Shown here in pieces: positions 20,386 to 53,992 of a stretch of 64,000 bases of DNA. How positions within the stretch are numbered: the stretch's first letter is position 1; each line of letters opens with the position of its first letter. Made by a program: the position numbers and the translations under genes. The DNA is from an uncultured Methanosarcinales archaeon (GTDB lineage: Archaea > Nanobdellota > Nanobdellia > Woesearchaeales > DSVV01). The stretch is from positions 55,843-119,842 of the forward strand of contig CAYVNN010000002.1 of NCBI GenBank assembly GCA_964453185.1, written 5' to 3'. The notes under the pieces are model-generated. The model saw nothing but the letters and a program-made list of their open reading frames with translations, did no database searches and had not been told where the DNA came from.

Positions 20386-20394
20386 TCTTTTACC

Positions 20395-27347: not shown

Positions 27348-27368
27348 ACCACCGCCTTGGCTCACCAT
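27348..27368. repeat. solo 5' half of the structured element (ACCACCGCCTTGGCTCACCAT), 21 nt after the pelA stop
   Basis: Matches the 5' core of copies A-G. No 3' partner within 100 nt. Confidence 0.6.
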
Positions 27369-28306: not shown

Positions 28307-28320
28307 TTCTCAAATACAAT

Positions 28321-28476
28321 AATGCCACCGCCTTGGCTCATTATCCTATCACAACATAGTATAGCGACAGGATATAGCAAAAGCAATTTTTGCTTTCTGC
28401 TTATTACGAAAAGCTTGCTTTGAGTATACGGTTTGTACATTATACATACACATTGAGTCAGAGCCGCAGTGGCATT
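28321..28476. repeat. structured inverted-repeat element, copy E (longest, 156 nt)
   Basis: AATGCCACCGCCTTGGCTCATTAT ... TCAGAGCCGCAGTGGCATTAT. Begins 15 nt after the stop of 27419..28306. Confidence 0.75.
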
Positions 28477-28565
28477 ATCTAGTTCTAACAATATATACAG
28501 TAATATACAAAAAACACACTTCTTCAGGGAAAACTTTAAAAATTAAAAAAAATTCAAGTATTCTA

Positions 28566-30234: not shown

Positions 30235-30278
30235 AATAACCCCAACAAAAAGAAAGAAATGAATATTAATTTAAAAAG

Positions 30279-36710: not shown

Positions 36711-36756
36711 TTATTTACCACCAAAAAGTAATGTCAAAACAAAACATTTATAAATG
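36711..36756 (+). promoter_or_regulatory. conserved upstream element + BRE/TATA (TTATTTACCACCAAAAAGTAATGTCAAAACAAAACATTTATAAATG) for the SLT gene
   Basis: About 88% identical to 45361..45406, upstream of the cyclase gene. TTTATAA TATA box at 36747-36754, roughly 40 nt before the ATG. Confidence 0.5.
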
Positions 36757-36791: not shown

Positions 36792-38159
36792 ATGAACAGA
36801 AGAACATTATTAGGATTATTAGGAGGAGCTGCATTAAGCTTAGCTGTACCAAGAATGGGCCTAGGTTCTGATCCACAAGATTTCACAATCAATTATGGAA
36901 CATTTGGTTTACATGACAGACAAACAGCTTTCTCATTATGTGATATGATTCAAGCAGAAGGTTCTGATTTTGATGATATAAAAGTTATTGAATGGGAACA
37001 AGGAAGTGAAAAAAGATACTCTGTCGCAATAGATGTAACTGGAACATTTACAGATGTTAGAGACAGAACAAATAATGACGAAGAATCATTAGCACAATTA
37101 ATTGACATGCACAATCCAGAAGGACATGACTTAAGTTTTTTACCTAGTTCTAGATATGATGGAAGAGACGTATACAAAGATGGAAGAGAAATAGTTAGTG
37201 ATTTACAACCAGTACCAACAAGACCACCAACAGGAAGAGTTCTTTACACAGATTTTAGAGATCCAGAATTCGAAAGACAAGTAGAACAAAGATTAACAAA
37301 CATTAGACCAGGTGGATCAAGACATGAAAAAATTACAAAAGGTATCAAAAGAGGATGGAAATATAAAGCATTAATCAGAGATACTGTTATTGCAAAAGGA
37401 CTTGATCCAGAATATGCTGATTTATTTTTCGCATTAATGATTCAAGAATCACTAGGAAATACAAGAGCAAGATCAAGAGCAGGTGCTGCAGGATTATTTC
37501 AAATCATGCCTGGCACAGGAAAAAAGGATCTTGGAATGACTATGAACCAATTCGTAGATTTAAGATATTCAATCAGAACATCAATAGAAAAAGGAATTCA
37601 ATATTTAGAAAAACCATGCCTTACACAAGCACAAGGAGATATAAGAATCGCTCTTGCTGGATATAATGGTGGCCCATATGGACTTGGCGATAAAATAAAA
37701 GATTTTAGAAGAAGAGGAAAATCAATATCATACAATAGCATAATGGCTGGAAGAAATAGTGAAAATAGTGGATACGCACCAGGAATTTATGCAATTCAAG
37801 CATATGTTACAGAACTAAGTTTACCTGATGAAAATGAAGTTGACTTCAGAAAAACTTGGGAAATAGCTACTATAACTCCAGGAAGTAGAGGATTAAAAAT
37901 GAGACTACCAGATGGAACAGAAGTTAATTTTACAGACAGAGCAGGAACAACAAATCTAGACAGATTAGCACAATCATACAATGCTCATGTCAAAAATGAA
38001 ACAGGTTTTGACATGAATACATCATATTTTAATGGAACAATTGGAAGAGAATTTAAAGACATGAATGCCCATGTTAAAAAAGATGGCACATTAGTTTCAG
38101 GAGTACCATATGTAATTTGGGTTCCTAAACCAGATGCTATTCAACAATTAACTAGATAA
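36792..38159 (+). CDS. Tat-secreted lytic transglycosylase (SLT domain) protein
   Basis: Tat-like signal MNRRTLLGLLGGAALSLAVP. ALMIQESLGNTRARSRAGAAGLFQIMPGTG is the SLT catalytic ES...GLxQ signature. The catalytic domain also carries GYNGGPYGL. Confidence 0.75.
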   Translation: MNRRTLLGLLGGAALSLAVPRMGLGSDPQDFTINYGTFGLHDRQTAFSLCDMIQAEGSDFDDIKVIEWEQGSEKRYSVAIDVTGTFTDVRDRTNNDEESLAQLIDMHNPEGHDLSFLPSSRYDGRDVYKDGREIVSDLQPVPTRPPTGRVLYTDFRDPEFERQVEQRLTNIRPGGSRHEKITKGIKRGWKYKALIRDTVIAKGLDPEYADLFFALMIQESLGNTRARSRAGAAGLFQIMPGTGKKDLGMTMNQFVDLRYSIRTSIEKGIQYLEKPCLTQAQGDIRIALAGYNGGPYGLGDKIKDFRRRGKSISYNSIMAGRNSENSGYAPGIYAIQAYVTELSLPDENEVDFRKTWEIATITPGSRGLKMRLPDGTEVNFTDRAGTTNLDRLAQSYNAHVKNETGFDMNTSYFNGTIGREFKDMNAHVKKDGTLVSGVPYVIWVPKPDAIQQLTR

Positions 38160-40298: not shown

Positions 40299-41333
40299 TC
40301 ACAATTGACTCTTTAAATTCTCTATAAACCTATCAAAATCATTCAACTTAATACATGCACCGCATGCATGCATATGTCCACCACCATAACCTTCAACATC
40401 TTTCAATGCACTTTCAATCAATGGCGGAATATCTAAATCTGAAGATCTTAAACTACATTTCATTTCTCCTGACTTTTCTCTACCTATAATAATTAACTTA
40501 CCAGGATATTTATACAATAATTCATTTGATAGATCAGAAGTAAATGACATTGTTTTTTCAGTATATGTAAACATAACAATATTTCCCTTAACATTATCTT
40601 CACCTATTGAATTTATCAAAGGTTCATATTCATTATTAACTTTCTTAAAACGTTTATACAAATACTTTCCTTGTGATGTGGTTTTCTCCATAATTTCCAT
40701 TGGATCTTTTATTCTTGTCAAAACCTTTACACAAGACAAAACATCTTTTGTACTTCCCTTCAAAACAAAAGAAAAAATTCTGCATAATTTTCCTAATGGA
40801 CTGTTATACAAAAGTTCTTCTGGTTTTTTAGAAACCTTTGGTAATAATTTAGGATATTTTTTCTTAAACTCATCAATAAATTCTGGAACAAACCAATCTG
40901 AAACACAACCAACAGTTGAAATCCACATTTCTTCTTCATCTTTTATAACTTTATATGCCCAATAAGAAGTTGGTCTATTATCTTCATCATCTTTAAGTCT
41001 AGGATTAAAATATTCAACCCTCTCAACATCCTGTGGTTGATGATGATCTAACCATACAATTGGTAAATTAATTGCATCAATAAAATCCTGATTAATCCTT
41101 GGCTTATCTAAAACAAATATTTTATCCGGTTCATAACTTTCAACAGACCTAACAAACATCTTACTTAATTCAGGTGTTGATTTAACTACAACACCCCTTC
41201 CTTCTTGTTTATTTCTATAAAATAATAAGAATGAACATAATCCATCTGGATCATCATCAAAGAAATATATTGGTCTGGCACAATTATCAAGATGATCTTT
41301 AATTTTCATTAAATTCTTAGTCAATATTGCCAT
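40299..41333 (-). CDS. DHH/DHHA1 phosphoesterase (RecJ/NrnA-like)
   Basis: DxD motif FFDDDPDG, DHH motif WLDHHQP and DHHA1 GGGHMHACGA. Confidence 0.65.
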   Translation of the reverse strand: MAILTKNLMKIKDHLDNCARPIYFFDDDPDGLCSFLLFYRNKQEGRGVVVKSTPELSKMFVRSVESYEPDKIFVLDKPRINQDFIDAINLPIVWLDHHQPQDVERVEYFNPRLKDDEDNRPTSYWAYKVIKDEEEMWISTVGCVSDWFVPEFIDEFKKKYPKLLPKVSKKPEELLYNSPLGKLCRIFSFVLKGSTKDVLSCVKVLTRIKDPMEIMEKTTSQGKYLYKRFKKVNNEYEPLINSIGEDNVKGNIVMFTYTEKTMSFTSDLSNELLYKYPGKLIIIGREKSGEMKCSLRSSDLDIPPLIESALKDVEGYGGGHMHACGACIKLNDFDRFIENLKSQL

Positions 41334-41416: not shown

Positions 41417-42610
41417 ATGAATATACAATGTGTTAAATGTAAAGGTAGAAAGCTTTGCGGTAGATCATTCTGTCCGATTCAAACAAAACTAGCTTCTCAG
41501 AAACAATCAAACACAAAGTTTAAACAAGACTTTTTTGGAGACACGCCTAATGTATTTGTTGGGCACTATGGATATCCTAATATCAATGTTGGATTATTAG
41601 CTACAGAAGAATACAATAATCATGATAACCCAAAAGAATGGTCAAAAGAAAATTACACAATTCCAAAAATAATTAATCTAAGAACAGAAATGATTAATTC
41701 AAATTTTAAAACAAACATTAAGTCATTCAAAGATCGTTTTATGGAACTTAGCCAAGAAGTCTCATTATCTACAAAACCAGTTGATATGGAAATTAATTTA
41801 GAAAGAAAACCACAATTCAAACTAACACTTAACCAAGACACTGCACCACACGGACCAAATGTAAAATTAAAAAAAGCACAGATAACTGAAAACCCAAAAA
41901 TACCACACAAAGTAGACAAAATTGTAAGTGATTATGATATAAAAGCAGCAGGTGCAATAGACACATTATACAAAAAAGGTTTTGATGAACAATACTTAAC
42001 AAAAATAATCAGTGTAGGAAATTTAGGTGTTAAAACACAAAGAATTCTTGTTCCAACTAGATGGAGTTTAACAGCTGTCGACGACATAATTGGAAAAAAA
42101 TTAATTGAAAAAATAAAAACATTTGATACTTCACCATACAAAACTTTCTTCGGAGGATTCCTAGGTAATTACTACCTTATCCTAATGTTTGAATCAGAAT
42201 GGAACTATGAACTATTTGAAACAGTTATGGGAGAAAAGATAAGCTTTGCAACAGACTTTGAAAGTTATAGAGGAAGAAAAAACTATGCATCACAAACAGC
42301 AGGAGGATATTATGCTTGTCGATTAGCAATATTAGAAAAACTAAAACAGATAAAAAAACAATCTGGTGTCTTAGCATTAAGATTTATTAATCCAAAAGAA
42401 TATGTAGCTCCGCTTGGTGTGTGGGTATGTAGAGAAGCAACAAGAAAATCATTAGAATCAAAAGCAATTGAATTTTCATCTAAAGAATTAATGTTAACAT
42501 ATGCAAAGCATTTAATTAAGAAAAAGTTTAACATTGACATAAACATATTATTAAAAAACAGTAAATTATTAGATCAAATAAAAAATCAGAAAAGATTAAC
42601 TGAATTCTAA
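41417..42610 (+). CDS. NreA-like (archaeal Nre family) DNA-repair-associated protein
   Basis: N-terminal Cys cluster CVKCKGRKLCGRSFCP, then PNVFVGHYGYPNINVG. The overall 397-aa architecture resembles Nre_N/Nre_C. Confidence 0.45.
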   Translation: MNIQCVKCKGRKLCGRSFCPIQTKLASQKQSNTKFKQDFFGDTPNVFVGHYGYPNINVGLLATEEYNNHDNPKEWSKENYTIPKIINLRTEMINSNFKTNIKSFKDRFMELSQEVSLSTKPVDMEINLERKPQFKLTLNQDTAPHGPNVKLKKAQITENPKIPHKVDKIVSDYDIKAAGAIDTLYKKGFDEQYLTKIISVGNLGVKTQRILVPTRWSLTAVDDIIGKKLIEKIKTFDTSPYKTFFGGFLGNYYLILMFESEWNYELFETVMGEKISFATDFESYRGRKNYASQTAGGYYACRLAILEKLKQIKKQSGVLALRFINPKEYVAPLGVWVCREATRKSLESKAIEFSSKELMLTYAKHLIKKKFNIDINILLKNSKLLDQIKNQKRLTEF

Positions 42611-42652: not shown

Positions 42653-43738
42653 ATGAAAGGATTAGGTATAACAATCAAAGGTTTTGAAGAAATCAGCTCT
42701 AAAGAAGTCAAAGAATTGATCAAAACAGACTGTAAAATAGAAGAACATATTGTAATCTTTGAAACTAAACAAAAAGATCTTTGTAAATTAGCATACATGT
42801 CACAAAGTTTAATTAAAGTTATAGAATTATTAAAACAATTCAAAATAACAGATAATATAAAAGAAAAAGTTCAAAAAATTGATTGGAAGAAAATAATTAA
42901 AGACAAATCATTCAAAGTTAGATGTAAAAGACTTGGTAAACATGACTTTACAAGTCAAGAAATGCAAGGACAAATTGGCGAATATGTTTTAGACAAACAT
43001 AAAGCAAAAGTTTGCATGGATTCTCCTGATTTAATCATTTATTTATTCATAAACAATGAAAATTGTTATTTAGGTATTGATTATTGTGGATTTGATCTAA
43101 GTAAAAGAGATTATAAAATATTTAGTCATGCATGTTCACTAAATGGTGCAGTTGCATATGGATTAATAAAATATACAGGATACAATAAAAAAGGTTTTGT
43201 ACTTGATCCATTCTCAGGAATTGGAACAATACCTATTGAAACTGCATTCTTTTCATTAAACAAAAGCATTAATTTCTATAAAAAAGATAAATTTGCATTT
43301 AATAACTTTGTTGACATTGATTTATCTAAATTTGACAAAGAAAACAAACACAAAGATAAAATAATTGGTTATGATATATTATTAAGAAATATAGCAGCTT
43401 CAAAGAAAAATGCAAAGATTGGTGGTGTTAATAAAACAGTGGGTTTTTCTAGAATTGAAGTCGAATGGCTAGATACTAAATTTAAAGAACATGAGGTTGA
43501 TTTTATAATAACACATCCTCCAATTGATTCAAAAATAATTTCTGAAAAAGAAATTGAAAAAATATACAAAGAATTCTTTTACCAAGCAGACTATGTTCTC
43601 TCAAAAGGAGGAAGAATTGGAATATTATCAACAAAAGATAAACTCCTTAAGAAATGCACAGACAAATTTAAACTTGAAAAAGAAACAGAAGTAATGCAAG
43701 GCAAACAGAAGTTAAAGGTTTTAGTTTTTAAAAGATAA
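42653..43738 (+). CDS. THUMP-domain class I SAM-dependent tRNA (guanine-N2) methyltransferase (Trm14/TrmN-like)
   Basis: N-terminal ferredoxin-like/THUMP region, then the VLDPFSGIGTIPIE SAM-binding motif and a DPPY-like ITHPPID motif. Confidence 0.65.
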   Translation: MKGLGITIKGFEEISSKEVKELIKTDCKIEEHIVIFETKQKDLCKLAYMSQSLIKVIELLKQFKITDNIKEKVQKIDWKKIIKDKSFKVRCKRLGKHDFTSQEMQGQIGEYVLDKHKAKVCMDSPDLIIYLFINNENCYLGIDYCGFDLSKRDYKIFSHACSLNGAVAYGLIKYTGYNKKGFVLDPFSGIGTIPIETAFFSLNKSINFYKKDKFAFNNFVDIDLSKFDKENKHKDKIIGYDILLRNIAASKKNAKIGGVNKTVGFSRIEVEWLDTKFKEHEVDFIITHPPIDSKIISEKEIEKIYKEFFYQADYVLSKGGRIGILSTKDKLLKKCTDKFKLEKETEVMQGKQKLKVLVFKR

Positions 43739-43740
43739 TA

Positions 43741-43847
43741 TTAACACCACCACCTTGACTCTGTATTGGATAATCCACAAGATCGCACTAAAAGTCGCGT
43801 TGCGTTATTCTAACTTTACTAAGAGCTAGAGTCGCTGTTGGCGTTAA
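43741..43847. repeat. structured inverted-repeat element, copy F
   Basis: TTAACACCACCACCTTGACTCTGTAT ... CTAGAGTCGCTGTTGGCGTTAA. Begins 3 nt after the stop of 42653..43738. The terminal stem pairs better when read from the minus strand (G-U instead of A-C). Confidence 0.65.
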
Positions 43848-43859
43848 TTTAAAGAAATC

Positions 43860-44580
43860 TTAAGCAGCATATCTTCTAACATGTTCTAATGCCTTAGGTA
43901 AATGATCTACAATATCTGCTTTTTGATATGTTCTAACAGCATTTCTCTCAAAACTAGGTGTACTTGGTTTTGCTGCTAACATAATTCGCATTCCTATCTG
44001 AGCAGGCAATGCTAAATCCATCTCATAAATATCTCCAATAACAAGAACATTATGTGGCTTAAGTCCTTTTTTTCTCATTAATCTAGTCAAAGTATTCCAA
44101 TATAATTTTCGTCTTAAATAAACATCTCTTTCATAACCAACAGGCCGGATAGATTCATCAACACCATACCAACCTAGATCTAAAGCATTTTTTCTTGCAT
44201 TTCCTACAACAGGAATACTTGTATACTTATCACCTAACATAGCTAATTTTCTTTCCACACCTGCTATTCTAGAATTTGTAACAATAACAACATCATGCAG
44301 GAACAACAATTCTTCCATGCTCTTTCCAACCATAATTAAAAGGATTCTCTCTAACAATCCTTTCCATTCTGCTCCATCTTTGATCAAACTCTTGTTGACT
44401 TATTCCTAATGCTTCTTTAAAATCATCTTTAAAAGCAGGAACATAAGGAGCTGTTTCCTTAAAAACATCAGTCAAAGTTCCATCAAAATCAAGAACAACT
44501 AATCTAATTCCCTCAACAGAACCTACTATCGGAACTCCTCTTCTCAATCTAGCATCCATTAATCTTGTTAATCTACTCAT
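43860..44580 (-). pseudogene. HAD-family hydrolase split by a frameshift into two overlapping ORFs (44293..44580 and 43860..44387)
   Basis: The upstream ORF carries motif I VVLDFDGTLTD. The downstream ORF carries motif IV VLVIGDIYEMDLALPAQIGMRIML. The two frames overlap by about 95 nt. Confidence 0.55.
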
Positions 44581-44632
44581 ATTAAGAAAGAGTTCTAGTT
44601 TAGTTTAAAAAAATTGTTAAAAAAAGAAAAAA

Positions 44633-45175
44633 TTAAAGTTGGAAATCACTTGGACCAATTACTATTTGTCTCTGTGCAACTCCATCATCTGGTGAAGTTA
44701 CTATATTATTTAGTGTATATCCAATCCAGTTATCCATTGAATTAACATCTGCTGAACCAACACCAACAGTATCACTACTATACCCTGATCTGTAACATTT
44801 TCCAGACGCATCTAATGATGTAAAATATCTTCCATCACCTGGAAGATCTAATACTACTACATCATCTGATGTAACACCATTATTATGCCAGTCTATATAA
44901 GCAACCTGTGCTAATCTTCCTTCAACAACTTTTGTTTCCTTTGCTACATACGGACTAAACTTACCCTCAGGAACATCAATACCATAGTCTTTCTTGATTT
45001 GATCTGGTGACATATATACTTTTAGACCTGAATCCTCAGCATATTGAGCTAATTCTGTTTTTGCTCCATAATCCATTGTAGGCTCTTCTGCTGCCCATCC
45101 ATCCATAGGCATTATAACTCTCGCAACTGTTCCTAAAACAACCGCTCCTTTTTTTAATTTTAATTCTAAACTCAT
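44633..45175 (-). CDS. hypothetical beta-rich protein (180 aa)
   Basis: No recognisable motif; weakly hydrophobic N-terminus. Confidence 0.35.
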   Translation of the reverse strand: MSLELKLKKGAVVLGTVARVIMPMDGWAAEEPTMDYGAKTELAQYAEDSGLKVYMSPDQIKKDYGIDVPEGKFSPYVAKETKVVEGRLAQVAYIDWHNNGVTSDDVVVLDLPGDGRYFTSLDASGKCYRSGYSSDTVGVGSADVNSMDNWIGYTLNNIVTSPDDGVAQRQIVIGPSDFQL

Positions 45176-45360: not shown

Positions 45361-45406
45361 TTATTTACCACTTAAAAGTAACGTAAAAAACAAAACATTT
45401 ATAACT
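45361..45406 (+). promoter_or_regulatory. conserved upstream element + BRE/TATA (TTATTTACCACTTAAAAGTAACGTAAAAAACAAAACATTTATAACT) for the cyclase gene
   Basis: Paralogous to 36711..36756. The TATA box lies about 22 nt before the ATG at 45428, which implies a leaderless transcript. Confidence 0.5.
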
Positions 45407-45427: not shown

Positions 45428-46120
45428 ATGAACACTAAAACAGATGAAAATACTAAGACAAAAGTCGTTATGTTTGTAGATATTACTAATTATTCTAAAA
45501 AAACATCAAATATAAGCAAACAAGACCTAATCGAATTACATGACATATTTGATGGCTTCTGTATACCTAATTTTGAAGCATTTACAGGCAGAATCATCAA
45601 GAAAATAGGAGATGCATTCTTAGTAACCTTTGAGAATCCAACAGACGCAGTAATGTGCGGAATTGAATTACAGAAATCATTTCACAATCACAATAAAAAA
45701 ATAAGAAGAACAAGACCTAAAAATCAAATCAGAGTTAGAGTCGCACTCCACATGGGAGAAGTTACATATAGAAAAGGAGATATCTATGGTGACACAGTTA
45801 ACACTACAGCTCGTCTAGAAGCCTTATGTAAACCAGGACAAGTAGTATTTAGTGGATCAGTATATTCTGCAATGGAAAGAAACGGAATAGGTATTGTCCA
45901 TTTAGGTTTAAGAAAATTAAAAGGAATGAAATATCCAGTACAAGCATTTAGAATCAGAACCAAAGTAGACGACAGAATCATCAAGATTAAGAAAAGAAAG
46001 AAATCATATACAAAATTTAAACAAAGAATCAGTGCCAGTATATTATTACTTATTTCACTAATAGCTGGAGCAGCTTCTGTTGCTATTATTCTATATTATC
46101 TATTTAGTACAGTTTTATAA
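45428..46120 (+). CDS. class III nucleotidyl (adenylate/guanylate-type) cyclase with a C-terminal TM anchor
   Basis: VVMFVDITNYS (metal-binding Asp), IGDAFLVTF, GDTVNTTARLE and a C-terminal ILLLISLIAGAASVAIILYYLF helix. Confidence 0.7.
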   Translation: MNTKTDENTKTKVVMFVDITNYSKKTSNISKQDLIELHDIFDGFCIPNFEAFTGRIIKKIGDAFLVTFENPTDAVMCGIELQKSFHNHNKKIRRTRPKNQIRVRVALHMGEVTYRKGDIYGDTVNTTARLEALCKPGQVVFSGSVYSAMERNGIGIVHLGLRKLKGMKYPVQAFRIRTKVDDRIIKIKKRKKSYTKFKQRISASILLLISLIAGAASVAIILYYLFSTVL

Positions 46121-46132: not shown

Positions 46133-46242
46133 GCATTTGTACTAGCACCTTGACTCACTATTAAATAATACAGCGAAAGCGCTAAAAGTCTTATACGTAC
46201 AGAAAAACATACATTGTATCAGAGTCGTCCTAGTACAAATGC
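46133..46242. repeat. structured inverted-repeat element, copy G
   Basis: GCATTTGTACTAGCACCTTGACTCACTAT ... TATCAGAGTCGTCCTAGTACAAATGC. The terminal stem is a perfect 13-bp helix with a sequence unrelated to the other copies. Begins 13 nt after the cyclase stop. Confidence 0.75.
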
Positions 46243-46325
46243 AATTTATAACCAAGGCAGCAGCATTACTACATTAGTAGATAATATAGGAAAAATTAAT
46301 AAACTTTGTATAATTATTTACATTA

Positions 46326-47351
46326 ATGAAGTTTAAATCAGACAAAGAATCAAAACCAATCAAACTTGATCTAAAAGATAAAAGAATTCTAAAATTACTT
46401 GACTTAAATTCTAAACAAAGTTATTCTGCAATTGCAAAAAAAGTTGGATTATCTAAAGAAAGTATTAGATATAGAATAAAACAACTAGAAGACAAAGGAG
46501 TAATACAAGGATACAGACTTGTAGTTGATATGCAGAAATTAGGATTCATTGTTAATCATATTTTTATGACACTAAGCAAACCAGACCTAAAGATTGAAGC
46601 AGATTACTTAGATAAACTAATCAAACTACCCTTTGTCAGAGCAATAATTAAATTTAATGGAGATTATGATTATGAAATTGCAATGGTTGCAAAGAATGTT
46701 GAAGAGATTGATAATAATCTAAACACATTACTTGAAGATGTAAGTCAATTCATAAAAAAACAAGAATTATTTATTGTTGTTAAATATTACGTAAAAAAAG
46801 GATTACCAAATAGTTTTTTACCAGAATCTCAAGCAGGATTTAAGAAAGTAACAAATGAGACGACAAAAGAACCAAATATTGATGAAAAAGATTTAAAGAT
46901 AATTGATGCAATGAAAGGACAAGCAAATAAACCAATCTATCAAATTGCAGAAGAAACAGGATATTCTTCAGAAGTTGTTTCTTACAGACTTAAAAAGATG
47001 GAAAAATCTGGCTTTATATCTAATTATACAATTGCACTTAATTATTATGCATTTAATTATCAAGTCTATGTAATATTACTTAATGTCCATAGTTTACATG
47101 GTGAAACTGAACAAAAACTAGCTAGTTTCTTAGAAAATGATAATAATGTTATTTGGGCAGTTAAAACAATTGGTAAATATAATGTTATTGCATATGTCTG
47201 CACAAAAAGCATTAATGAATTACATGAAACCATAGATAAAATAAGAAGAAACTTTGGAGATAACCTTCAAGATCACAAAACATTAATTGCTTATGAAAAC
47301 AATAAGTTTACTTATGTACCTGATGTTGCACTAAGTGAAGAAGCAGAGTAA
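46326..47351 (+). CDS. tandem (double) Lrp/AsnC-family transcriptional regulator
   Basis: Two HTH_AsnC-like segments (KDKRILKLLDLNSKQSYSAIAKKVGLSKESIRYRIKQLEDKGVIQGY and DLKIIDAMKGQANKPIYQIAEETGYSSEVVSYRLKKMEKSGFI), each followed by a RAM-like domain. Confidence 0.65.
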   Translation: MKFKSDKESKPIKLDLKDKRILKLLDLNSKQSYSAIAKKVGLSKESIRYRIKQLEDKGVIQGYRLVVDMQKLGFIVNHIFMTLSKPDLKIEADYLDKLIKLPFVRAIIKFNGDYDYEIAMVAKNVEEIDNNLNTLLEDVSQFIKKQELFIVVKYYVKKGLPNSFLPESQAGFKKVTNETTKEPNIDEKDLKIIDAMKGQANKPIYQIAEETGYSSEVVSYRLKKMEKSGFISNYTIALNYYAFNYQVYVILLNVHSLHGETEQKLASFLENDNNVIWAVKTIGKYNVIAYVCTKSINELHETIDKIRRNFGDNLQDHKTLIAYENNKFTYVPDVALSEEAE

Positions 47352-47358: not shown

Positions 47359-47379
47359 CACCACTGCCTTGGTTCATTA
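47359..47379. repeat. solo 5' half of the structured element (ACCACTGCCTTGGTTCATTAT), 8 nt after the Lrp gene stop
   Basis: Matches the 5' core with 2 substitutions; no 3' partner. Confidence 0.5.
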
Positions 47380-47421: not shown

Positions 47422-47760
47422 ATGGTAAAAAAAGAGGTATTTATTAATAGAACTCCTAGTTTATTTGAGTTAATATTATTATTAGCTGGATTGGGTGTTA
47501 CTATTCTTGGTTTTTATCTCATTCATCAACAATACATACTTGATGGAGCAATATTATCATGGAATTTACTAATTAGCGTATTCTTATGGTTACTCCTAAT
47601 CATTGGAATAATATTAGTAGCATTGTTAGAAGATGTTAAAATGGAGCTTTCTACTGTAATAAAAGAACATGTTGAAGAAATTCGACTATTACAAGATGAA
47701 GATAAACTTCTTAAGAAAATAGCTAAAAATAGTAAAAAACCAAGGAAAAAGAGAAAGTAA
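47422..47760 (+). CDS. small membrane protein with 2 TM helices and a basic C-terminal tail
   Basis: Two hydrophobic helices, then KNSKKPRKKRK. Confidence 0.4.
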   Translation: MVKKEVFINRTPSLFELILLLAGLGVTILGFYLIHQQYILDGAILSWNLLISVFLWLLLIIGIILVALLEDVKMELSTVIKEHVEEIRLLQDEDKLLKKIAKNSKKPRKKRK

Positions 47761-47786
47761 TTTAAATATAGGTTTAATTCTGAGGT

Positions 47787-48111
47787 ATTGTAGGGAAGTA
47801 CTTAACTATCGGTGTAAACTGAGGAAAGTCCGTCCACCGTGAAAGACCAGTCTTGGAAGGGACATGGAGAAATTCATGGCAACCACTCAGAAACGAAACC
47901 ACTTGTACTGGGAATGATAGAGTGAAGCAAATGGCGACATTTGTTAGTATCCTCTTGACTATCTTTACAAGAAAGGATGAAACGGTGAGCCCTGGTTGGT
48001 GCAAGGCAGTAACTTTATGTTACATCAGTCCGCTAAGTTAAATGTTAAGGGGTCTGTTTGCATTCAAGGTGCATAGACTCAACAGAAGACGGCTTACCTC
48101 TTCTCTACAAT
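47787..48111 (+). ncRNA. rnpB: RNase P RNA (archaeal type A-like)
   Basis: GAGGAAAGTCCG (P4 5' strand / CR-I) near the 5' end and CAACAGAAGACGGCTTACC (CR-V / P4 3' strand) near the 3' end. P1 pairing of ATTGTAGGGAAG (47787-47798) with CTTCTCTACAAT (48100-48111). Length about 325 nt. Confidence 0.85.
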
Positions 48112-48400: not shown

Positions 48401-49741
48401 ATGAAACAAAATAAAACTGCAGAATTCATTAAAAATCCAAAGAAATCTTTCTACAAACTAGCTTTGCCTATGTTTGTTGCTTTAATTGTTCAAACATTAT
48501 ACAATATCACAGACACTGCTTTTGTTGGTAGGTTAGGAGCAGAATCAATTGCTGCATTAACTTTTGCATTTCCATTCTTTTTTGTATTCATAGCAGTCAA
48601 TGCAGGAATCAATATTGGAATGGGTTCAAAGATATCTAGATTATTAGGAAAGAAAAAGAAAATAGAAGCAGAAAACACAGCAATGCATGGTTTGTTCATG
48701 TCATTATTAGCTGCATTAATAATATTTATTATATCTATATTTTCATTAAGAACCATATTTTCAATGTTTGGTGCAGAAGGAGTTGTATTAGAATTAGCAG
48801 TAAGTTATATGACAATTATATTATTGGGAATATTCTTAATGTTTCCTGCATTTACATTTGGAACAATCTTTTCTTCACAAGGAGATACAACAACTCCAAT
48901 GAAAATACAAATCATTGCACTAGTCACAAACATAATATTAGATCCAATCTTTATTTATGTATTAGGATATGGTGTTAAAGGAGCAGCAATTGCAACAGTG
49001 ATTGCATTTTCAGTTGGAGTAATGATTGGATTATATTATATTATTAAAAAATCTTATTTGAAAATTCATATTAGTTCTTTTAAATTTTCTTTTGATATTA
49101 TTAAAGACATATTATATGTAGGGGTTCCTGCAAGTTTAACAACCTTAATGATTGCAGTATATATTATGATAATGAACAAATTCATGGCTTACTATGGAAC
49201 AGATTATATTGCTGCAATGGGAATTGCTACAAGATTAGAAAGTGTTGCAATTATGCCAATAATGGCTGCAGGAATGGCACTTGTTACTTTAGTTGGAATG
49301 TTCCACGGAGCTAAGAAATATAAATTAATGAAAGAGATAATATGGTATGGAACAAAAGTAACTGCATTTGCAACTGCAATAATAGGAATAGTTACATTTG
49401 CTATTCCTGAATTACTTCTTAGAATATTCACACCAGATTCTAATTTAATTAATATTGGAATTGGTTATTTAAGAATTAATGTCTTTACATATCCACTTAT
49501 GGCAATTATTGTTCTTATTAGTAGATCTATACAAGGAATGGGATATGGAATGCCTGCATTGTTTATCTATGCATTAAGGTTTTTTATTTTAGTAATACCT
49601 TTTGCTTATGTGTTTGTTTATGTAATGAAATTAAGTTATTTATCAATTGCATTAGCAATGGTTTTAGGAGCAGTAGTTGCAAGTATAGTTGCAATAGTTT
49701 GGTTAAATGTTAAGGTTGGAGAGTGTGAGAATAATTGTTAA
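48401..49741 (+). CDS. MATE-family efflux transporter
   Basis: 12 TM helices. N-terminal LALPMFVALIVQTLYNITDTAFVGRLG is the MATE signature. Confidence 0.75.
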   Translation: MKQNKTAEFIKNPKKSFYKLALPMFVALIVQTLYNITDTAFVGRLGAESIAALTFAFPFFFVFIAVNAGINIGMGSKISRLLGKKKKIEAENTAMHGLFMSLLAALIIFIISIFSLRTIFSMFGAEGVVLELAVSYMTIILLGIFLMFPAFTFGTIFSSQGDTTTPMKIQIIALVTNIILDPIFIYVLGYGVKGAAIATVIAFSVGVMIGLYYIIKKSYLKIHISSFKFSFDIIKDILYVGVPASLTTLMIAVYIMIMNKFMAYYGTDYIAAMGIATRLESVAIMPIMAAGMALVTLVGMFHGAKKYKLMKEIIWYGTKVTAFATAIIGIVTFAIPELLLRIFTPDSNLINIGIGYLRINVFTYPLMAIIVLISRSIQGMGYGMPALFIYALRFFILVIPFAYVFVYVMKLSYLSIALAMVLGAVVASIVAIVWLNVKVGECENNC

Positions 49742-50571
49742 TTTAGAATAAAAGAACTAAAATCATAACCATTATCAACAGCTCTATCCAATTCTCTTTG
49801 ATGTTCTCTCTGCCCCAATTCAACTAAAACAGGAGTTCCGATTTCAACTAAATTATCTAAAACATATTGTGCTCCATGTTTTTCTTCTGCCTCTAAAAGA
49901 GCATCATAAACCATAATAATTCCAGGTTTATTAGAATAAAAATTATCATCATCAATATCAGCAATTAATTCACGTCTAACACTTGGATGACTATGTCCAA
50001 CAACTACACCATTAAACCATCTTGCAAAACCTTCTTCAAATCTTCTTGAAGAATTACTATACAATGCTTCATGGAATTCTCCAACTTGAACTGCTTCTCT
50101 AACTAAATCATCCCTATAAACATTTTTAAAAACATGATGTCCATATTCATGTGCAACAATATCTTCTACTAAATGCCGCATCTGAGCCACTTGACTTAAT
50201 TTATTTCTATCTTCAAAATTAGATGCAAAATGATTATTCATAAATAAGTCAAAATAAAAACTTGCACGAAATAATGCTTCACCTGTCTGATCAGTATACA
50301 CAGGATTAACAAGAATCTCACCTTGAAAATACTTTCCATAAGCATCCAATATCTCTTCCGGCCTTCCTTCTCTTACAGTAATTCTATCTAAAGAAATCCC
50401 TAAGCCATTTATTCTAGAAACAATGTCGTCATTAACTTCATCCAAAGTAAATTGTCTAACTCCTTGTATAGGATCAGCAAATCTACTATAGCCCTTATCC
50501 CCATATCCATTAGATCTAGCAAGATCCCTTTTAAGATCCAGCAACCCATCCAAATCACAAAGTTCATACAT
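49738..50571 (-). CDS. HExxH zinc metalloprotease-like protein
   Basis: VAHEYGHHVF zincin motif; no signal peptide seen. Confidence 0.45.
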   Translation of the reverse strand: MYELCDLDGLLDLKRDLARSNGYGDKGYSRFADPIQGVRQFTLDEVNDDIVSRINGLGISLDRITVREGRPEEILDAYGKYFQGEILVNPVYTDQTGEALFRASFYFDLFMNNHFASNFEDRNKLSQVAQMRHLVEDIVAHEYGHHVFKNVYRDDLVREAVQVGEFHEALYSNSSRRFEEGFARWFNGVVVGHSHPSVRRELIADIDDDNFYSNKPGIIMVYDALLEAEEKHGAQYVLDNLVEIGTPVLVELGQREHQRELDRAVDNGYDFSSFILN

Positions 50572-51019: not shown

Positions 51020-51739
51020 ATGATATATTCTCAACATAAAGATATGGCAGACTATTGGAAAACAATTATAAGAGAAGGAAGAGATGCTTTTAGAACATAT
51101 GTTTCTGATCCTGCTCTATTTGAAAGATTAGATACATTAGATGAAAATTCAAGAATCTTAGATGCAGGTTGTGGAGAAGGCTATGTTTCAAGGAGATTAA
51201 CAAAACAAGGACATGAAGTTATTGGTATTGATTTATCTGAACCATTAATTGAACATGCAAGAGAACTCGCAACAACAGAAACATATCAAGTTTGTGATGT
51301 TCTTACTTTACCATTTGATGAACAAACATTTGATGTAGTCGTAGCAAACTTCTTATTGATGGAATTTGAACACCCAGAGTTAGCAATACAAAGGCTTGCC
51401 AAAGTTCTCAGACATGGTGGAAGATTTATTTTTCAGATACTAAATCCAAGAATGAATACTTCTCTTTCAGGTGTAATGAAAGGAGAAGAAGATAGATATC
51501 ATGAAACCCAGAGACTTGAAGAAAGATTTGTTGTTGATGGAACAGTATCACCAAGAGCAGCTGTATATTTCCATCATCCTTTTGAAAGATATGAACAAGC
51601 CTTAGCTGAACATGGATTTAGAAGAATATACCGGGCCATCCCTGAACCAATTGCTGAAACCCCAACTGATCATGCCATGATTAAAACGCTAAAACAACCA
51701 TGGTTTGTTTTAATGGATTATGAAAAGGTTCAATCATAA
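51020..51739 (+). CDS. class I SAM-dependent methyltransferase
   Basis: Motif I ILDAGCGEGYVSRRL, with an acidic residue after beta2 (IDLSE). Confidence 0.65.
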   Translation: MIYSQHKDMADYWKTIIREGRDAFRTYVSDPALFERLDTLDENSRILDAGCGEGYVSRRLTKQGHEVIGIDLSEPLIEHARELATTETYQVCDVLTLPFDEQTFDVVVANFLLMEFEHPELAIQRLAKVLRHGGRFIFQILNPRMNTSLSGVMKGEEDRYHETQRLEERFVVDGTVSPRAAVYFHHPFERYEQALAEHGFRRIYRAIPEPIAETPTDHAMIKTLKQPWFVLMDYEKVQS

Positions 51740-52734
51740 GAAAGTAATTTCTCCCTCTCTAACTTTTTCAAAGGATAAGGATCATAAATTAAATCATTCT
51801 CAAACATCACTATGAATTCTACATTCTTAATTATGTCATTAAACTCAATTCTTAACTTTGATATTTCTTTTTGTAATTCTTCTTGAGATTCAACTTCTAT
51901 TGTTATCTCAAAATTCCATTTTCCTACTGTCTCTATGGCGAGGACCATTCTTGGATTTGAATAAGCATAAGAGAAAAGACTGCTTCTTACTTTCTCTTCC
52001 ATATTCTGTAAATTAAATAACAACCTATAACTTTGCATACCATAATTCTGGGATCTAATGTAAGTAGTGTGTGCTTGAATGATTCCTCTTTTTTCTAAAT
52101 GTTTAATTCTTAACGAAATTGTGCTAGCTGGTTTTTTGATAATCTGGGCAAGTTTTATTATACTCATACGGGCATTGTTTGACATTAGTGACAAGATTGT
52201 AGAATCTAACTCATCTAATTCTTCTATATCTGGTTTTTTTCCAAAGTAAGGTGGTTGGAATGATTTAGGTATATTTCCTGTTAAGTAATCTCTTTTATTT
52301 TGTCTTAATTCTGTTCTTATGGTTACACTATTGTCAACTAAATAATTTCCATATTTTGTAAGAATTTGATAATAAATTGTATTAAATTCATAAACACTTT
52401 TTGCCATAATCCCAAAGACTATATCAAATTTCCCTCCGATTGTAGCAATCCAGTAAAGTTCAGGAATACTACCTAGGTATTCAATCATTTCATTCTTTAA
52501 TTTCTCATCAACATTTTGAAACCTACTGTAAACACCAAATCCAGTATATCCCAATTTAGCGAAATTTACTAAAGTTGTATATCTTTCTATTATCCCTCTC
52601 TTTTCAAGATTTTTAATTCTATAAATAACAGTCTCTTTTGATAATCTTACTTTCTTCCCTATCTCTTGAAATGTTGCCCTGGCATTAAGATCCAGTTCTG
52701 CTAATATCTTTCTATCCTTAATATCTAACTGCAT
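51730..52734 (-). CDS. tandem (double) Lrp/AsnC-family regulator, paralog of 46326..47351
   Basis: Start at the ATG at 52734 (MQLDIKDRKILAELDLNARATFQEIGKKVRLSKETVIYRIKNLEKRGII), with a second HTH_AsnC in the C-terminal half. The 5' extension of the track ORF overlaps the divergent gene and lacks features. Confidence 0.6.
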   Translation of the reverse strand: MQLDIKDRKILAELDLNARATFQEIGKKVRLSKETVIYRIKNLEKRGIIERYTTLVNFAKLGYTGFGVYSRFQNVDEKLKNEMIEYLGSIPELYWIATIGGKFDIVFGIMAKSVYEFNTIYYQILTKYGNYLVDNSVTIRTELRQNKRDYLTGNIPKSFQPPYFGKKPDIEELDELDSTILSLMSNNARMSIIKLAQIIKKPASTISLRIKHLEKRGIIQAHTTYIRSQNYGMQSYRLLFNLQNMEEKVRSSLFSYAYSNPRMVLAIETVGKWNFEITIEVESQEELQKEISKLRIEFNDIIKNVEFIVMFENDLIYDPYPLKKLEREKLLSYD

Positions 52735-52840
52735 ATTATAACAAATAACATAATTAGCTAATAAATGTTGTGTTTTATTAAAAAAATAAGAAATTATTCT
52801 AATATATGATAGAAGATCACCACATTTAAGGAATAAAAGA

Positions 52841-53992
52841 ATGAAACTAATAATACCTGATAATAATGATCCAGAATTATTAAAGGTTGTCCAAAGACTT
52901 GTAAATAAAGAGTCTGCACATAAAATTACAGGCATATATGGAAAGCCCACAAAGAATGAATACTTAGGGTCAGGAAGAACAAATAAAATAGACCATACAC
53001 GAAAAGAAGCAGAAGAAAGAGTTTCTAATTTCAGAGCAATGGGAATTTCATATGAATGGTCAATCAACGATATTGTTCCAAGATTTGATTTTTTAGATTG
53101 TAGAGAAAAAATAATTAAAGAATTAGAATGGTTAGAAAGTTCAAGTATTCCATCACTCACTGTTGCTAGTTATGGATTAGCAAGATTAGCAGAAAGATAT
53201 TGTCCTAATAAAGATATAACTGTTTCATTTTTTGCAGGAGTCTCTTCTAAGAAGAAATTAATTCAATGGGCAAAATTACCAAATGTTAGAACTGTTGTTC
53301 TAGATGGATCAACTTTGAGAAACCTTCACGCACTAGAGGAATTAGTAAGGATTGGAGAAAGATATGATGCAAGAATAAGAGTAATAGCAAATCTTGGATG
53401 TATGTCTGACTGTATACAAACTAGAGGGCATGCCATAATAAAATCATATGCATCTATTAACGCGTCAAGATTACATTGTAGACCTTTTACATATTACTGT
53501 CTAAAACATTTACTTGAGAACCCAAGAGAGTTATTACAATTACCCATAATTAGACCAGAAGATTTAAAGAGATATGAAGAGATAGGAGTTGATACAGTAA
53601 AACTTGTAGATAGATCTAGACCCACTCAATGGATTGAAGAAGTTGTTGGACATTATCTTAATGGAACCTATCATGGAAACATCCTTGACTTAACTAGTAA
53701 TTTTTCTACACTTGATATTAGACCAATAAGTACTGATGAAGTTTCTAGAATAAGTGTAGCTGAGTTAAATAGATTAACAGAAGCAGAAAAAAGAGAATGG
53801 ATAAGAAGATATAGGGAGAGATTACCAGAATTTATAGGAGTTAGTATTAATCCAGATTATGATTTATTAGCTTGTGATAATACATGTGAAGAATGTAATT
53901 GTGATCCTTCTGCTCTTAGATATGATCCTGAGAGAAGAAGAATAGTATTAGCTCAATTAAATGAAATAGAAAGGATGTATTTGTTCAGGTAA
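52841..53992 (+). CDS. possible peptidase-U32-family (TIM-barrel) protein with a Cys-rich C-terminus
   Basis: GVDTVKLVDRSRPTQWIEEVVGHY resembles the U32 GVDAFKIEGRMKSPEYV segment. C-terminal CDNTCEECNCD cluster. Confidence 0.3.
   Translation: MKLIIPDNNDPELLKVVQRLVNKESAHKITGIYGKPTKNEYLGSGRTNKIDHTRKEAEERVSNFRAMGISYEWSINDIVPRFDFLDCREKIIKELEWLESSSIPSLTVASYGLARLAERYCPNKDITVSFFAGVSSKKKLIQWAKLPNVRTVVLDGSTLRNLHALEELVRIGERYDARIRVIANLGCMSDCIQTRGHAIIKSYASINASRLHCRPFTYYCLKHLLENPRELLQLPIIRPEDLKRYEEIGVDTVKLVDRSRPTQWIEEVVGHYLNGTYHGNILDLTSNFSTLDIRPISTDEVSRISVAELNRLTEAEKREWIRRYRERLPEFIGVSINPDYDLLACDNTCEECNCDPSALRYDPERRRIVLAQLNEIERMYLFR

What the first reader, a model, noticed from the sequence alone, without database searches (positions are those of the whole stretch)
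45428..46120. Membrane-anchored class III nucleotidyl cyclase in an archaeal genome
The catalytic domain has the canonical metal-binding and transition-state residues (FVDITNYS, GDAFLVTF, GDTVNTTARLE) followed by a single C-terminal TM helix. Class III cyclases are uncommon in archaea. Standalone single-domain cyclases with TM segments also resemble the PycC cyclases of Pycsar anti-phage systems, which pair with TM or TIR effectors. No obvious effector gene is adjacent, though the upstream 180-aa hypothetical (44633..45175) is uncharacterised. The gene shares a promoter element with an SLT gene and is followed by repeat copy G.
Basis: partly seen in the sequence, partly recalled or inferred. 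Interest (0 to 1): 0.55.

Follow-up and report, generated by a model that had tools for sequence, protein, structure and literature searches.

The report
Tail-anchored adenylyl cyclase of DPANN archaea
The gene encodes a small, complete cAMP-making enzyme held to the inside of the cell membrane by a single C-terminal helix. It belongs to a family conserved across tiny DPANN archaea, is a signalling enzyme rather than an anti-virus system, and is mildly interesting because no cAMP-making enzyme has been characterised in any archaeon.

Summary
ORF 45428-46120 (+) encodes a 230-aa protein with a class III cyclase domain (Pfam PF00211, E 3.6e-18), a lysine/arginine-rich linker and one C-terminal transmembrane helix. 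The window is archaeal (RNase P RNA, Nre protein).

All catalytic residues are present: D18 and D62 (metals), N125 and R129 (transition state). K58, D118 and A128 match the specificity triad of the solved adenylyl cyclase Ma1120. These residues are conserved in 49 of 49 non-redundant archaeal relatives, apart from one K58Q and A128, which is Ala or Ser. The predicted product is cAMP.

The Pycsar idea is not supported. No gene with a cyclic-nucleotide-binding, TIR or PycTM domain lies nearby in the window. None recurs among 141 neighbours of 48 relatives. PycC models match only weakly. Neighbouring genes are housekeeping genes.

The protein is the sensor-less, tail-anchored form of a large family built as N-terminal cyclase, one TM helix, C-terminal domain.

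In relatives, but not here, a TctA-type membrane protein is the persistent neighbour (32 of 49 loci).

Here the gene shares a roughly 44-nt upstream cassette with an SLT gene. It is followed by one copy of a genome-specific structured hairpin repeat.

Verdict: a new member of a known kind, of moderate interest.

The parts
45361..45404 (+). Upstream promoter cassette. It ends in an archaeal TATA-like box, TTTATAA (45398-45404), 23 nt before the ATG, which implies a leaderless or near-leaderless mRNA. It is about 90% identical to 36711-36753, upstream of the SLT-domain gene.
   Evidence: An exact 18-mer is shared. The pairwise alignment extends the similarity to about 44 nt. The 24-nt 5' part occurs only at these two places in the window, against 0.02 expected. 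The promoter role is inferred from its position and from the known archaeal BRE/TATA consensus.
45428..46120 (+). Complete gene for the 230-aa tail-anchored class III adenylyl cyclase (coordinates include the stop codon).
45461..45946 (+). Catalytic cyclase homology domain, residues 12-173. Metal-binding Asp D18 (45479-45481) and D62. Adenine-specifying K58 and D118, plus A128. Transition-state N125 and R129. Phosphate-binding K165.
   Evidence: Pfam match. Residue mapping against Ma1120 wild type versus its KDA-to-EGY mutant. Conservation in 49 of 49 loci. AlphaFold2 model with pLDDT 95.3. Foldseek target TM-score 0.91-0.95 to Ma1120.
45956..46033 (+). Basic juxtamembrane linker, residues 177-202, predicted helical. 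It carries most of the 12 K/R counted over residues 177-203.
   Evidence: charge count. (continuous helix 179-229). A comparable basic linker is present in nearly all relatives.
46034..46105 (+). Single C-terminal transmembrane helix (tail anchor), about residues 203-226. Only about 4 residues lie beyond it.
   Evidence: Hydropathy 2.64. 46 of 49 non-redundant relatives have the same single C-terminal TM.
46134..46244 (+). Copy G of a genome-specific structured hairpin repeat, starting 14 nt after the stop codon. It is adjacent to the gene but is probably not part of the cyclase's function.

Best explanation
The gene encodes a minimal homodimeric class III adenylyl cyclase.

Topology. The N-terminal catalytic domain faces the cytoplasm. 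A lysine/arginine-rich helix followed by one C-terminal transmembrane helix tethers it to the membrane (tail-anchored, N-in).

Catalysis. Two such domains would pair head-to-tail to form two active sites.
- D18 and D62 hold two Mg2+/Mn2+ ions.
- K58 and D118 read the adenine of ATP.
- N125 and R129 stabilise the transition state.
- K165 binds the beta/gamma phosphates.
- The products are 3',5'-cAMP and pyrophosphate.

Family. The protein is the sensor-less end member of a large family built as N-terminal cyclase, one TM helix, C-terminal (presumably extracytoplasmic) domain. It is inherited vertically in Woesearchaeota/Nanoarchaeia (DPANN) archaea.

Regulation. Because it has no sensor domain, control is most likely at transcription. 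Here the gene carries a promoter cassette shared with an SLT-domain gene. Control through TM-mediated dimerisation or membrane partners is also possible.

What is shown and what is inferred. Shown: the domain, residues, fold, TM helix, family conservation and gene context. Inferred: the dimer, topology, product and mode of regulation. The cAMP receptor is unknown.
For: Domain and fold.
- PF00211 matches with E 3.6e-18.
- The AlphaFold2 model has pLDDT 95.3.
- The best fold matches are the adenylyl cyclases Ma1120, 3mr7 and Rv1900c, with target TM-score 0.86-0.95 and rmsd 1.1-2.6 A.
- The same proteins are the best sequence matches in the PDB: E 1e-17 to 4e-19 for the single protein, and 1.5e-33 for the family profile.

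Specificity.
- Aligning wild-type Ma1120 (4wp9) against its KDA-to-EGY mutant (5d0g) places the three mutated positions on K58, D118 and A128 of this protein.
- D18, D62, D118, N125 and R129 are invariant in 49 of 49 non-redundant archaeal relatives. K58 is present in 48 of 49.

Membrane anchor.
- Hydropathy is 2.64 at residues 204-222.
- The preceding 27 residues carry 12 K/R, which by the positive-inside rule puts the catalytic domain in the cytoplasm.
- The same arrangement is found in 46 of 49 relatives.

Wider family.
- 3051 cluster representatives match at E<=1e-30.
- Of the best 150, 87 are N-terminal cyclase + 1 TM + a long C-terminal domain, and 19 are tail-anchored.

Native gene. GC3 and amino-acid composition are typical of the window. 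Relatives sit among ribosomal-protein, PRPP-synthase and tRNA-synthetase genes.
Against: - No enzymatic data exist for any member.
- The dimer was not modelled.
- No cAMP receptor (CNBD, GAF) or dedicated cAMP phosphodiesterase was found in the 64-kb window. The signalling pathway is therefore incomplete on present evidence, although the window is only a fraction of the genome.
- The nearest solved relatives are only 25-30% identical.
- Position 128 is Ala or Ser across the family, and one member has Gln at K58.
- Some class III cyclases with a canonical Lys/Asp pair show side activities with other NTPs (established knowledge, discussed in PMC8646023).
Confidence: 0.78

Rival explanations
1. 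It is a Pycsar-type defence cyclase (PycC). It would make cCMP or cUMP on virus infection and activate a membrane or TIR effector encoded nearby, causing abortive infection.
For: - Weak matches to three PADLOC PycC models, the best at E 4.2e-06 and 24 bits.
- It is a small cyclase without a sensor domain.
- PycC homologues have been reported in some euryarchaea (PMC10249747).
- A small 2-TM ORF (47422-47760) and an uncharacterised 180-aa ORF lie within 1.5 kb.
Against: - The general cyclase model scores far higher: 66 bits.
- No entry described as a PycC or pyrimidine cyclase appears among the 60 listed of 68 PDB sequence matches at E<=10, or in the top 50 fold matches.
- The K58/D118/A128 triad is that of an adenylyl cyclase.
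- No CNBD, TIR or PycTM hit occurs in any window neighbour.
- Among 141 genes at positions -1, +1 and +2 of 48 relatives, no CNBD or TIR family appears in the listed Pfam families, and no PycTM or PycTIR appears in the listed PADLOC families.
- The window's neighbours do not recur next to any relative's cyclase.
- The gene is lineage-wide and sits among housekeeping genes, unlike patchy defence islands.
Confidence: 0.03
2. It is a guanylyl cyclase, or a cyclase of broad specificity, making cGMP or several cNMPs.
For: The Pfam family covers both adenylyl and guanylyl cyclases. Solved guanylyl cyclases (Cya2 2w01, RhGC 6sir) are also good fold matches at E about 1e-13.
Against: Guanylyl cyclases carry Glu and Gly/Cys-type residues where this protein has K58 and D118. 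The engineered Ma1120 EGY mutant differs from this protein at exactly these three positions. The Lys/Asp pair is almost invariant in the family.
Confidence: 0.05
3. It is an active adenylyl cyclase whose real function is as the signalling arm of a TctA-type membrane transporter or receptor. On this reading, the window's lineage has lost or moved that partner.
For: - A PF01970 TctA-family membrane protein (about 394 aa) lies within 5 genes of the cyclase in 32 of 49 non-redundant archaeal loci and is directly adjacent in 21.
- It is always on the opposite strand.
- It occurs in two different gene arrangements, divergent upstream and convergent downstream.
- It is twice as persistent as any other neighbour.
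Against: - No TctA homologue is present in the 64-kb window.
- The genes are never co-directional, so they are not in one operon.
- Conserved synteny by descent in slowly rearranging small genomes could explain much of the signal.
- There is no known precedent for it (from my own knowledge; I did not run a literature search on TctA-cyclase coupling).
Confidence: 0.12

Closest known systems
Ma1120, stand-alone class III adenylyl cyclase of Mycobacterium avium (PDB 4wp8, 4wp9, 5d15; KDA-to-EGY mutant 5d0g, 5d0h)
   Same: It is the best fold match (target TM-score 0.91-0.95, rmsd 1.1-2.0 A) and among the best sequence matches (E 1e-17). Both have a short catalytic domain with no regulatory domain. 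The specificity triad Lys/Asp/Ala is identical.
   Different: Identity is only 28-30%. The solved Ma1120 chains have no counterpart to this protein's C-terminal helix. Ma1120 has Ala where this protein keeps the canonical transition-state Asn (N125), so the archaeal enzyme is the more canonical of the two. Ma1120 is bacterial.
3mr7 cyclase of Silicibacter (Ruegeria) pomeroyi and Rv1900c/LipJ cyclase domain of M. tuberculosis (1ybt, 1ybu)
   Same: 3mr7 is the top sequence match in the PDB (3.8e-19 for the protein, 1.5e-33 for the family profile). NCBIfam's best hit is the LipJ cyclase domain. All belong to the same short-armed branch of class III cyclases.
   Different: Those cyclase domains are C-terminal to an alpha/beta-hydrolase domain, as stated in the depositors' names and the NCBIfam description. 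Here the cyclase domain is N-terminal and is followed by a TM helix.
Uncharacterised family: N-terminal cyclase domain, one TM helix, C-terminal TPR-like or helical domain (for example P0056, P0060, P0062, P0063, P0070)
   Same: These are the closest sequence relatives outside the tail-anchored group (bits 209-236 against the family profile). They share the domain order, the basic linker and a TM helix at about residues 190-210.
   Different: They carry 100-450 further residues after the TM helix, which would be extracytoplasmic if the topology is the same. The window's protein ends about 4 residues after the helix, so it has no candidate sensor.
PycC pyrimidine cyclases of Pycsar anti-phage systems
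   Same: They share the class III fold and two-metal chemistry (PMC11224242). Both are small proteins without classical sensor domains.
   Different: PycC genes are paired with a CNBD-TM or CNBD-TIR effector gene. Their specificity residues are Y50/D94/R97, F100/R142/Q144 or F60/K104/F109, depending on clade. This protein has neither the effector partner nor a strong match to PycC models.
Membrane class III adenylyl cyclases with N-terminal membrane domains (mammalian AC1-9; mycobacterial Rv1625c, PDB 4p2f/7yz9 type)
   Same: The catalytic domain is homologous and membrane-associated.
   Different: Those enzymes have six or twelve TM helices N-terminal to the catalytic domain (established knowledge). 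Here a single TM helix lies at the extreme C-terminus, giving the tail-anchored topology.

Membership tests
Class III nucleotidyl cyclase (cyclase homology domain, PF00211) | Significant match to the family model over the whole domain | tested here: met
   66.2 bits against a gathering score of 21.9. Residues 12-173 cover profile positions 9-178 of 183.
Class III nucleotidyl cyclase (cyclase homology domain, PF00211) | Two metal-binding aspartates, plus the transition-state Asn and Arg | tested here: met
   D18, D62, N125 and R129 are invariant in alignment A1 and in 49 of 49 loci. They align to the corresponding positions of solved cyclases.
Class III nucleotidyl cyclase (cyclase homology domain, PF00211) | Beta-alpha-beta-beta-alpha-beta cyclase fold | tested here: met
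   AlphaFold2 model with pLDDT 95.3. Foldseek E 2e-16 and target TM-score up to 0.95 to Ma1120.
Class III nucleotidyl cyclase (cyclase homology domain, PF00211) | Head-to-tail dimer forming the active sites; cyclase activity | not testable with these tools
   Only monomer prediction was available. No biochemistry exists.
Adenylyl (as opposed to guanylyl) cyclase | Lys and Asp at the two base-recognising positions | tested here: met
   K58 and D118 align with the Lys and Asp that are changed to Glu and Gly in the Ma1120 EGY mutant. A128 aligns with the Ala changed to Tyr. K is present in 48 of 49 loci and D in 49 of 49.
Pycsar system (PycC + effector) | Adjacent effector gene with a cyclic-nucleotide-binding domain fused to TM helices or a TIR domain | tested here: not met
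   No such domain is found in the window neighbours. Among 141 neighbours of 48 relatives, none appears among the 25 listed Pfam families or the 25 listed PADLOC families. At most a single unlisted case could exist.
Pycsar system (PycC + effector) | Cyclase matches PycC models better than it matches general cyclases | tested here: not met
   The best PADLOC PycC match is 24.1 bits, against 66.2 bits for PF00211. No entry described as a PycC or pyrimidine cyclase appears among the 60 listed of 68 PDB sequence matches at E<=10.
Pycsar system (PycC + effector) | Pyrimidine-selecting active-site residues | tested here: inconclusive
   PycC specificity residues differ by clade (PMC11224242), and no direct alignment to a PycC structure was made. 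The purine-type K/D/A triad argues against pyrimidine selection.
Tail-anchored membrane protein | Single TM helix close to the C-terminus, no N-terminal signal or other TM, and positive charges on the N-terminal side | tested here: met
   Hydropathy 2.64 at residues 204-222 of 230. There is no other window above threshold. The preceding 27 residues carry 12 K/R. Actual insertion in the membrane is not testable here.
N-terminal cyclase, TM helix, C-terminal sensor-domain family | A C-terminal domain after the TM helix | tested here: not met
   The window's protein ends about 4 residues after the helix. 87 of the best 150 relatives have more than 45 residues after it. It is therefore related to this family but is a truncated, sensor-less form.

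The most novel reading that the evidence does not exclude
This family is the main cAMP synthase of Woesearchaeota/Nanoarchaeia. It would be the first bona fide cAMP-producing enzyme lineage in archaea. It would be a sensor-less, tail-anchored class III cyclase whose output is set by a membrane partner: the TctA-type protein that neighbours it in two thirds of relatives. In this genome, expression would instead be co-regulated with a cell-wall-cutting SLT enzyme, linking cAMP to the symbiont's interaction with its host.
Probability: 0.12. Interest if true: 0.6.

Novelty: new member of a known kind. Interest (0 to 1): 0.35.

Why it matters
cAMP has been measured in archaea. However, reviews state that no archaeal protein that makes, degrades or binds it has been characterised, and that the widely annotated class IV (CYTH) candidates are not cyclases (PMC10249747; PMC8646023).

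This family offers a small, fully canonical class III cyclase that is conserved across a whole DPANN lineage. At 230 aa with one domain, it is an easy candidate to express and assay. Its retention in very small genomes suggests that cAMP signalling matters to these symbionts.

It also shows that a lone cyclase with a TM segment should not be read as a Pycsar system unless an effector gene is present.

Tried and rejected
- **Pycsar reading.** Tested with PADLOC on the protein and its neighbours, and with Pfam and PADLOC on 141 neighbours of relatives. Rejected.
- **The 180-aa upstream ORF as effector.** It has no family hit, is divergently oriented, and is never found next to a relative's cyclase. 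Rejected.
- **The small 2-TM ORF 47422-47760 as a PycTM-like effector.** It has no CNBD, lies behind the Lrp gene, and is not conserved. Rejected.
- **Conserved neighbours of relatives.** TctA, the Cas4-like nuclease, PRPP synthase and 13 other clusters were searched for in the window with profile HMMs. None is present.
- **cAMP receptor or phosphodiesterase in the window.** 49 of the 55 ORFs kept after overlap filtering (at least 70 aa) were scanned with Pfam. No cNMP-binding or GAF domain was found. The only loosely relevant hits are a DHH/DHHA1 protein (40299-41333) and an HD protein (14912-15511).
- **Bacterial-type promoter and terminator scan around the gene.** Uninformative for an archaeon.
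- **Rfam search of the downstream repeat.** No credible family.
- **The 2004 survey of class III cyclases in bacteria and archaea** (PubMed 15043055). It is not held in the library.

Full report
**1. The observation**

The ORF at 45428-46120 on the + strand is real and encodes 230 residues. Pfam PF00211 (adenylate/guanylate cyclase catalytic domain) matches residues 12-173 at E 3.6e-18, 66 bits against a cut-off of 22.

The only strongly hydrophobic segment is at the extreme C-terminus. Its Kyte-Doolittle mean is 2.64 for residues 204-222. It is preceded by 27 residues holding 12 Lys/Arg and only 2 acidic residues.

The window is archaeal. An archaeal RNase P RNA lies at 47790-48108 and an Nre protein at 41417-42610. 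The window has 30% G+C. The gene's third-position G+C and amino-acid composition are typical of the window, so it looks native.

**2. What the protein is**

A search of 5.8 billion proteins found 37 relatives. Thirty-four of them are 205-295 aa (33 of those at most 239 aa), at 42-54% identity. Those that carry names are from 'Nanoarchaeota' or 'archaeon' MAGs and are already labelled as adenylate/guanylate or class 3 adenylate cyclases.

In the alignment the two metal-binding aspartates (D18, D62), the base-recognising D118, and the transition-state N125 and R129 are invariant. K58 is nearly so. Every member ends in a basic stretch followed by a hydrophobic helix.

The best sequence matches in the PDB are 3mr7, the adenylyl cyclase Ma1120, and Rv1900c/LipJ.

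The PDB holds both wild-type Ma1120 and its engineered 'KDA to EGY' specificity mutant. Comparing the two alignments shows which positions were changed. They fall on K58, D118 and A128 of the archaeal protein, which therefore carries the adenylyl-cyclase triad.

An AlphaFold2 model built on the family alignment is very confident (pLDDT 95.3). It shows the cyclase fold followed by one continuous helix from residue 179 to 229. Foldseek against the PDB puts Ma1120 first (target TM-score 0.91-0.95, rmsd 1.1-2.0 A), followed by 3mr7 and Rv1900c. All 50 listed matches are described as adenylyl or guanylyl cyclases.

**3. Distribution and architecture**

A scan of one genome per prokaryotic species found 281 relatives. 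Most of the best 55 loci are titled Woesearchaeota, Nanoarchaeia, Nanoarchaeota or Nanobdellota. About 20 others are titled 'uncultured Methanosarcinales' in third-party assemblies, and two carry bacterial titles. I suspect those labels are unreliable, but this was not tested.

After these come Riflebacteria/Ozemobacter proteins at 30-36% identity. Those are roughly 1000-aa HEAT-repeat proteins with the cyclase domain at the C-terminus.

After removing near-duplicates there are 49 archaeal loci. All 49 keep D18, D62, D118, N125 and R129. Forty-eight keep K58. Forty-six have the single C-terminal TM helix behind a basic linker. The exceptions are two fusions to a GH15-like domain and one protein with an N-terminal TM helix. 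Two further relatives carry a C-terminal RDD membrane domain.

An exhaustive profile search of 1.84 billion cluster representatives gave 3051 proteins at E<=1e-30. Among the best 150:
- 87 have an N-terminal cyclase domain, one TM helix and more than 45 further residues. Pfam recognises TPR repeats in one of the seven sampled (P0062) and nothing in the other six.
- 19 are tail-anchored like this one.
- 10 have two or more TM helices.
- 19 have no TM helix.

The window's protein is therefore the sensor-less minimal form of a large family built as cyclase, TM helix, C-terminal domain.

**4. Gene context and the Pycsar question**

The gene order around the cyclase in the window is:
- an Nre protein and a THUMP methyltransferase;
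- a HAD hydrolase split over two frames;
- the unknown 180-aa ORF on the opposite strand;
- the cyclase;
- a tandem Lrp/AsnC regulator;
- a 112-aa 2-TM ORF;
- RNase P RNA;
- a 70-aa basic ORF;
- a MatE transporter.

Further out lie an H+-pyrophosphatase, acetate kinase with phosphotransacetylase, an SLT-domain protein, a DHH/DHHA1 protein, ABCE1 and a second tandem Lrp/AsnC gene. Nothing carries a cyclic-nucleotide-binding, TIR or PycTM signature.

PADLOC's PycC models match the cyclase only weakly, at 24 bits.

In relatives I called ORFs in all loci and clustered the neighbours. I then scanned the 141 genes at positions -1, +1 and +2 of 48 relatives.
- The recurrent Pfam families are TctA (25), a Cas4-like PD-(D/E)XK nuclease (11), PRPP synthase (7) and GIY-YIG (3).
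- No CNBD or TIR family is among the 25 listed of 139.
- PADLOC likewise lists no PycTM or PycTIR.
- None of the window's own neighbours recurs beside any relative's cyclase, apart from generic Lrp/AsnC regulators a few genes away in 6 loci.

Pycsar is defined by a cyclase paired with a CNBD effector (PMC11224242). That defining feature is not met.

**5. A persistent neighbour in relatives**

The TctA-family membrane protein (about 394 aa) is within five genes of the cyclase in 32 of 49 loci and directly adjacent in 21. It is always on the opposite strand. It occurs in two different arrangements:
- L35Ae, AsnC, TctA divergent from the cyclase, then a Cas4-like nuclease, a 189-aa membrane protein and a roughly 620-aa protein that looks like a Lon-type protease (my reading of its sequence, not scanned);
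- tRNA synthetase, PRPP synthase, cyclase convergent with TctA, then a Na+/H+ exchanger.

It is twice as persistent as any other neighbour. This could reflect functional coupling or simply inherited synteny. The window has no TctA homologue, so this bears on the family rather than on this locus.

**6. Mechanism**

Shown here:
- an intact class III active site with adenine-type specificity residues;
- a confident cyclase fold;
- a C-terminal TM helix with a strongly basic cytoplasmic flank;
- lineage-wide conservation.

Inferred from established knowledge of class III cyclases:
- Two domains form a head-to-tail dimer with two active sites.
- Two divalent metals on D18 and D62 activate the ribose 3'-OH.
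- K58 and D118 bind adenine.
- N125 and R129 stabilise the transition state.
- The product is cAMP.

Inferred from the positive-inside rule: the catalytic domain is cytoplasmic and the protein is tail-anchored.

Because there is no sensor domain, regulation is probably transcriptional, or works through membrane partners or TM-driven dimerisation. The receptor for cAMP is unknown. None was found in the window.

**7. Regulatory and flanking DNA**

A TATA-like TTTATAA box ends 23 nt before the ATG, which implies a leaderless mRNA (inference).

36711-36753 (upstream of the SLT-domain gene at 36792) and 45361-45404 are about 90% identical over roughly 44 nt. The 24-nt 5' part occurs only at these two places in the window, against 0.02 expected. 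This suggests co-regulation of the cyclase and the SLT enzyme in this genome. It is not found in other loci.

Fourteen nucleotides after the stop codon lies copy G of a hairpin repeat, described under the items noticed in passing.

**8. Comparison with what is known, and novelty**

The protein is a member of the class III cyclases. It is closest to the short Ma1120, 3mr7 and LipJ-type domains, and is predicted to be an adenylyl cyclase. It is not a Pycsar cyclase.

The literature I could search says that very few archaeal cyclases are class III, and that no archaeal cAMP-synthesising enzyme has been characterised. I found no paper describing this DPANN family, although databases already label its members generically.

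I therefore rate it a new member of a known kind, with an unusual but simple tail-anchored, sensor-less architecture. Interest is moderate (0.35). It is a tractable candidate for the first characterised archaeal adenylyl cyclase, but its nature is what an automatic annotation would already suggest.

Noticed in passing
window 4951-5067, 17643-17760, 23758-23906, 28312-28483, 43734-43851, 46134-46244; 5'-motif-only copies at 27350-27364 and 47362-47376: A family of 110-170-nt hairpin elements, all on the + strand. Each has a 10-12-bp closing stem whose sequence differs between copies but stays paired. This is followed by a conserved mismatch, 2 bp, a CUU bulge and a 5-bp helix that also covaries (GGCTC/GAGCC, GACTC/GAGTC, GAGTC/GACTC), around a variable interior. 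RNAalifold finds 18 consensus pairs, 10 of them with compensatory changes among only 6 copies. The layout resembles a bulge-helix-bulge motif. Copies sit just after stop codons of + strand genes or upstream of - strand genes. The motif CCTTGRSTCWNTAT occurs 6 times against 0.05 expected. There is no Rfam match. It is absent from the 88 loci of other genomes.
   Followed up: partly
window 36711-36753 and 45361-45404: A roughly 44-nt, about 90% identical upstream cassette is shared only by the SLT-domain gene (36792-38159) and the cyclase gene. This suggests a common operator or promoter and co-regulation.
   Followed up: partly
loci L005, L008-L010, L013-L059 (relatives), for example L013:2514-3686: A TctA-family (PF01970) membrane protein is the most persistent neighbour of the cyclase. 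It is found in 32 of 49 non-redundant archaeal loci and is adjacent in 21. It is always on the opposite strand and occurs in two different arrangements. It is absent from this window.
   Followed up: partly
window 43860-44580 (- strand): A HAD-type hydrolase is split into two overlapping ORFs in different frames. 44293-44580 carries the N-terminal DFDGTL motif and 43860-44387 carries the C-terminal part. It may be a frameshifted pseudogene, a sequencing error or a programmed frameshift. One public assembly of the same region ends inside the next ORF (44633-45175): locus L001 holds only 65 residues of it at the contig end.
   Followed up: no
window 12336-14909 (+): A replication factor C small-subunit gene is interrupted by an intein with a LAGLIDADG homing-endonuclease domain. 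A perfect 33-nt tandem duplication lies inside it at 13031-13096.
   Followed up: no
window 47790-48108 (+): Archaeal RNase P RNA (127.6 bits). The ORFs listed at 47774-48004 (-) and 47853-48041 (+) overlap it and are probably spurious.
   Followed up: no
window 46326-47351 (+) and 51730-53160 (-): Two genes each encode a tandem (duplicated) Lrp/AsnC regulator with two HTH modules in one polypeptide. Ligand-binding (AsnC_trans_reg) matches were detected only in the first gene. That first gene lies directly downstream of the cyclase.
   Followed up: no
window 2900-3796, 8313-12227, 29584-31133, 36792-38159, 43860-45175, 49738-50571, 51020-51739: A subset of genes encodes proteins poor in Lys/Ile/Asn and rich in Gly/Ala/Arg/Pro compared with their neighbours, although third-position G+C is uniformly low (0.09-0.25). 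This may indicate old acquisitions from G+C-richer donors, now ameliorated, or a class of secreted or acidic proteins.
   Followed up: no
window 16662-25724 (- strand): A block of five large ORFs (336-1130 aa). The four scanned have no Pfam match, and 20395-23787 was not scanned. Several have N-terminal hydrophobic segments with lipobox-like Cys and Cys-rich acidic repeats, so they are probably surface proteins. A 45-nt tandem repeat lies at 23618-23707.
   Followed up: no
whole window: ARAGORN detected no tRNA gene in 64 kb.
   Followed up: no
loci L016 (4339-4971 and 5013-5669) and L054 (4247-4879 and 4953-5612); L060 and L062: Two relatives carry tandem paralogous copies of the tail-anchored cyclase. 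Two others fuse the N-terminal cyclase domain to a GH15-like glycoside-hydrolase domain.
   Followed up: no
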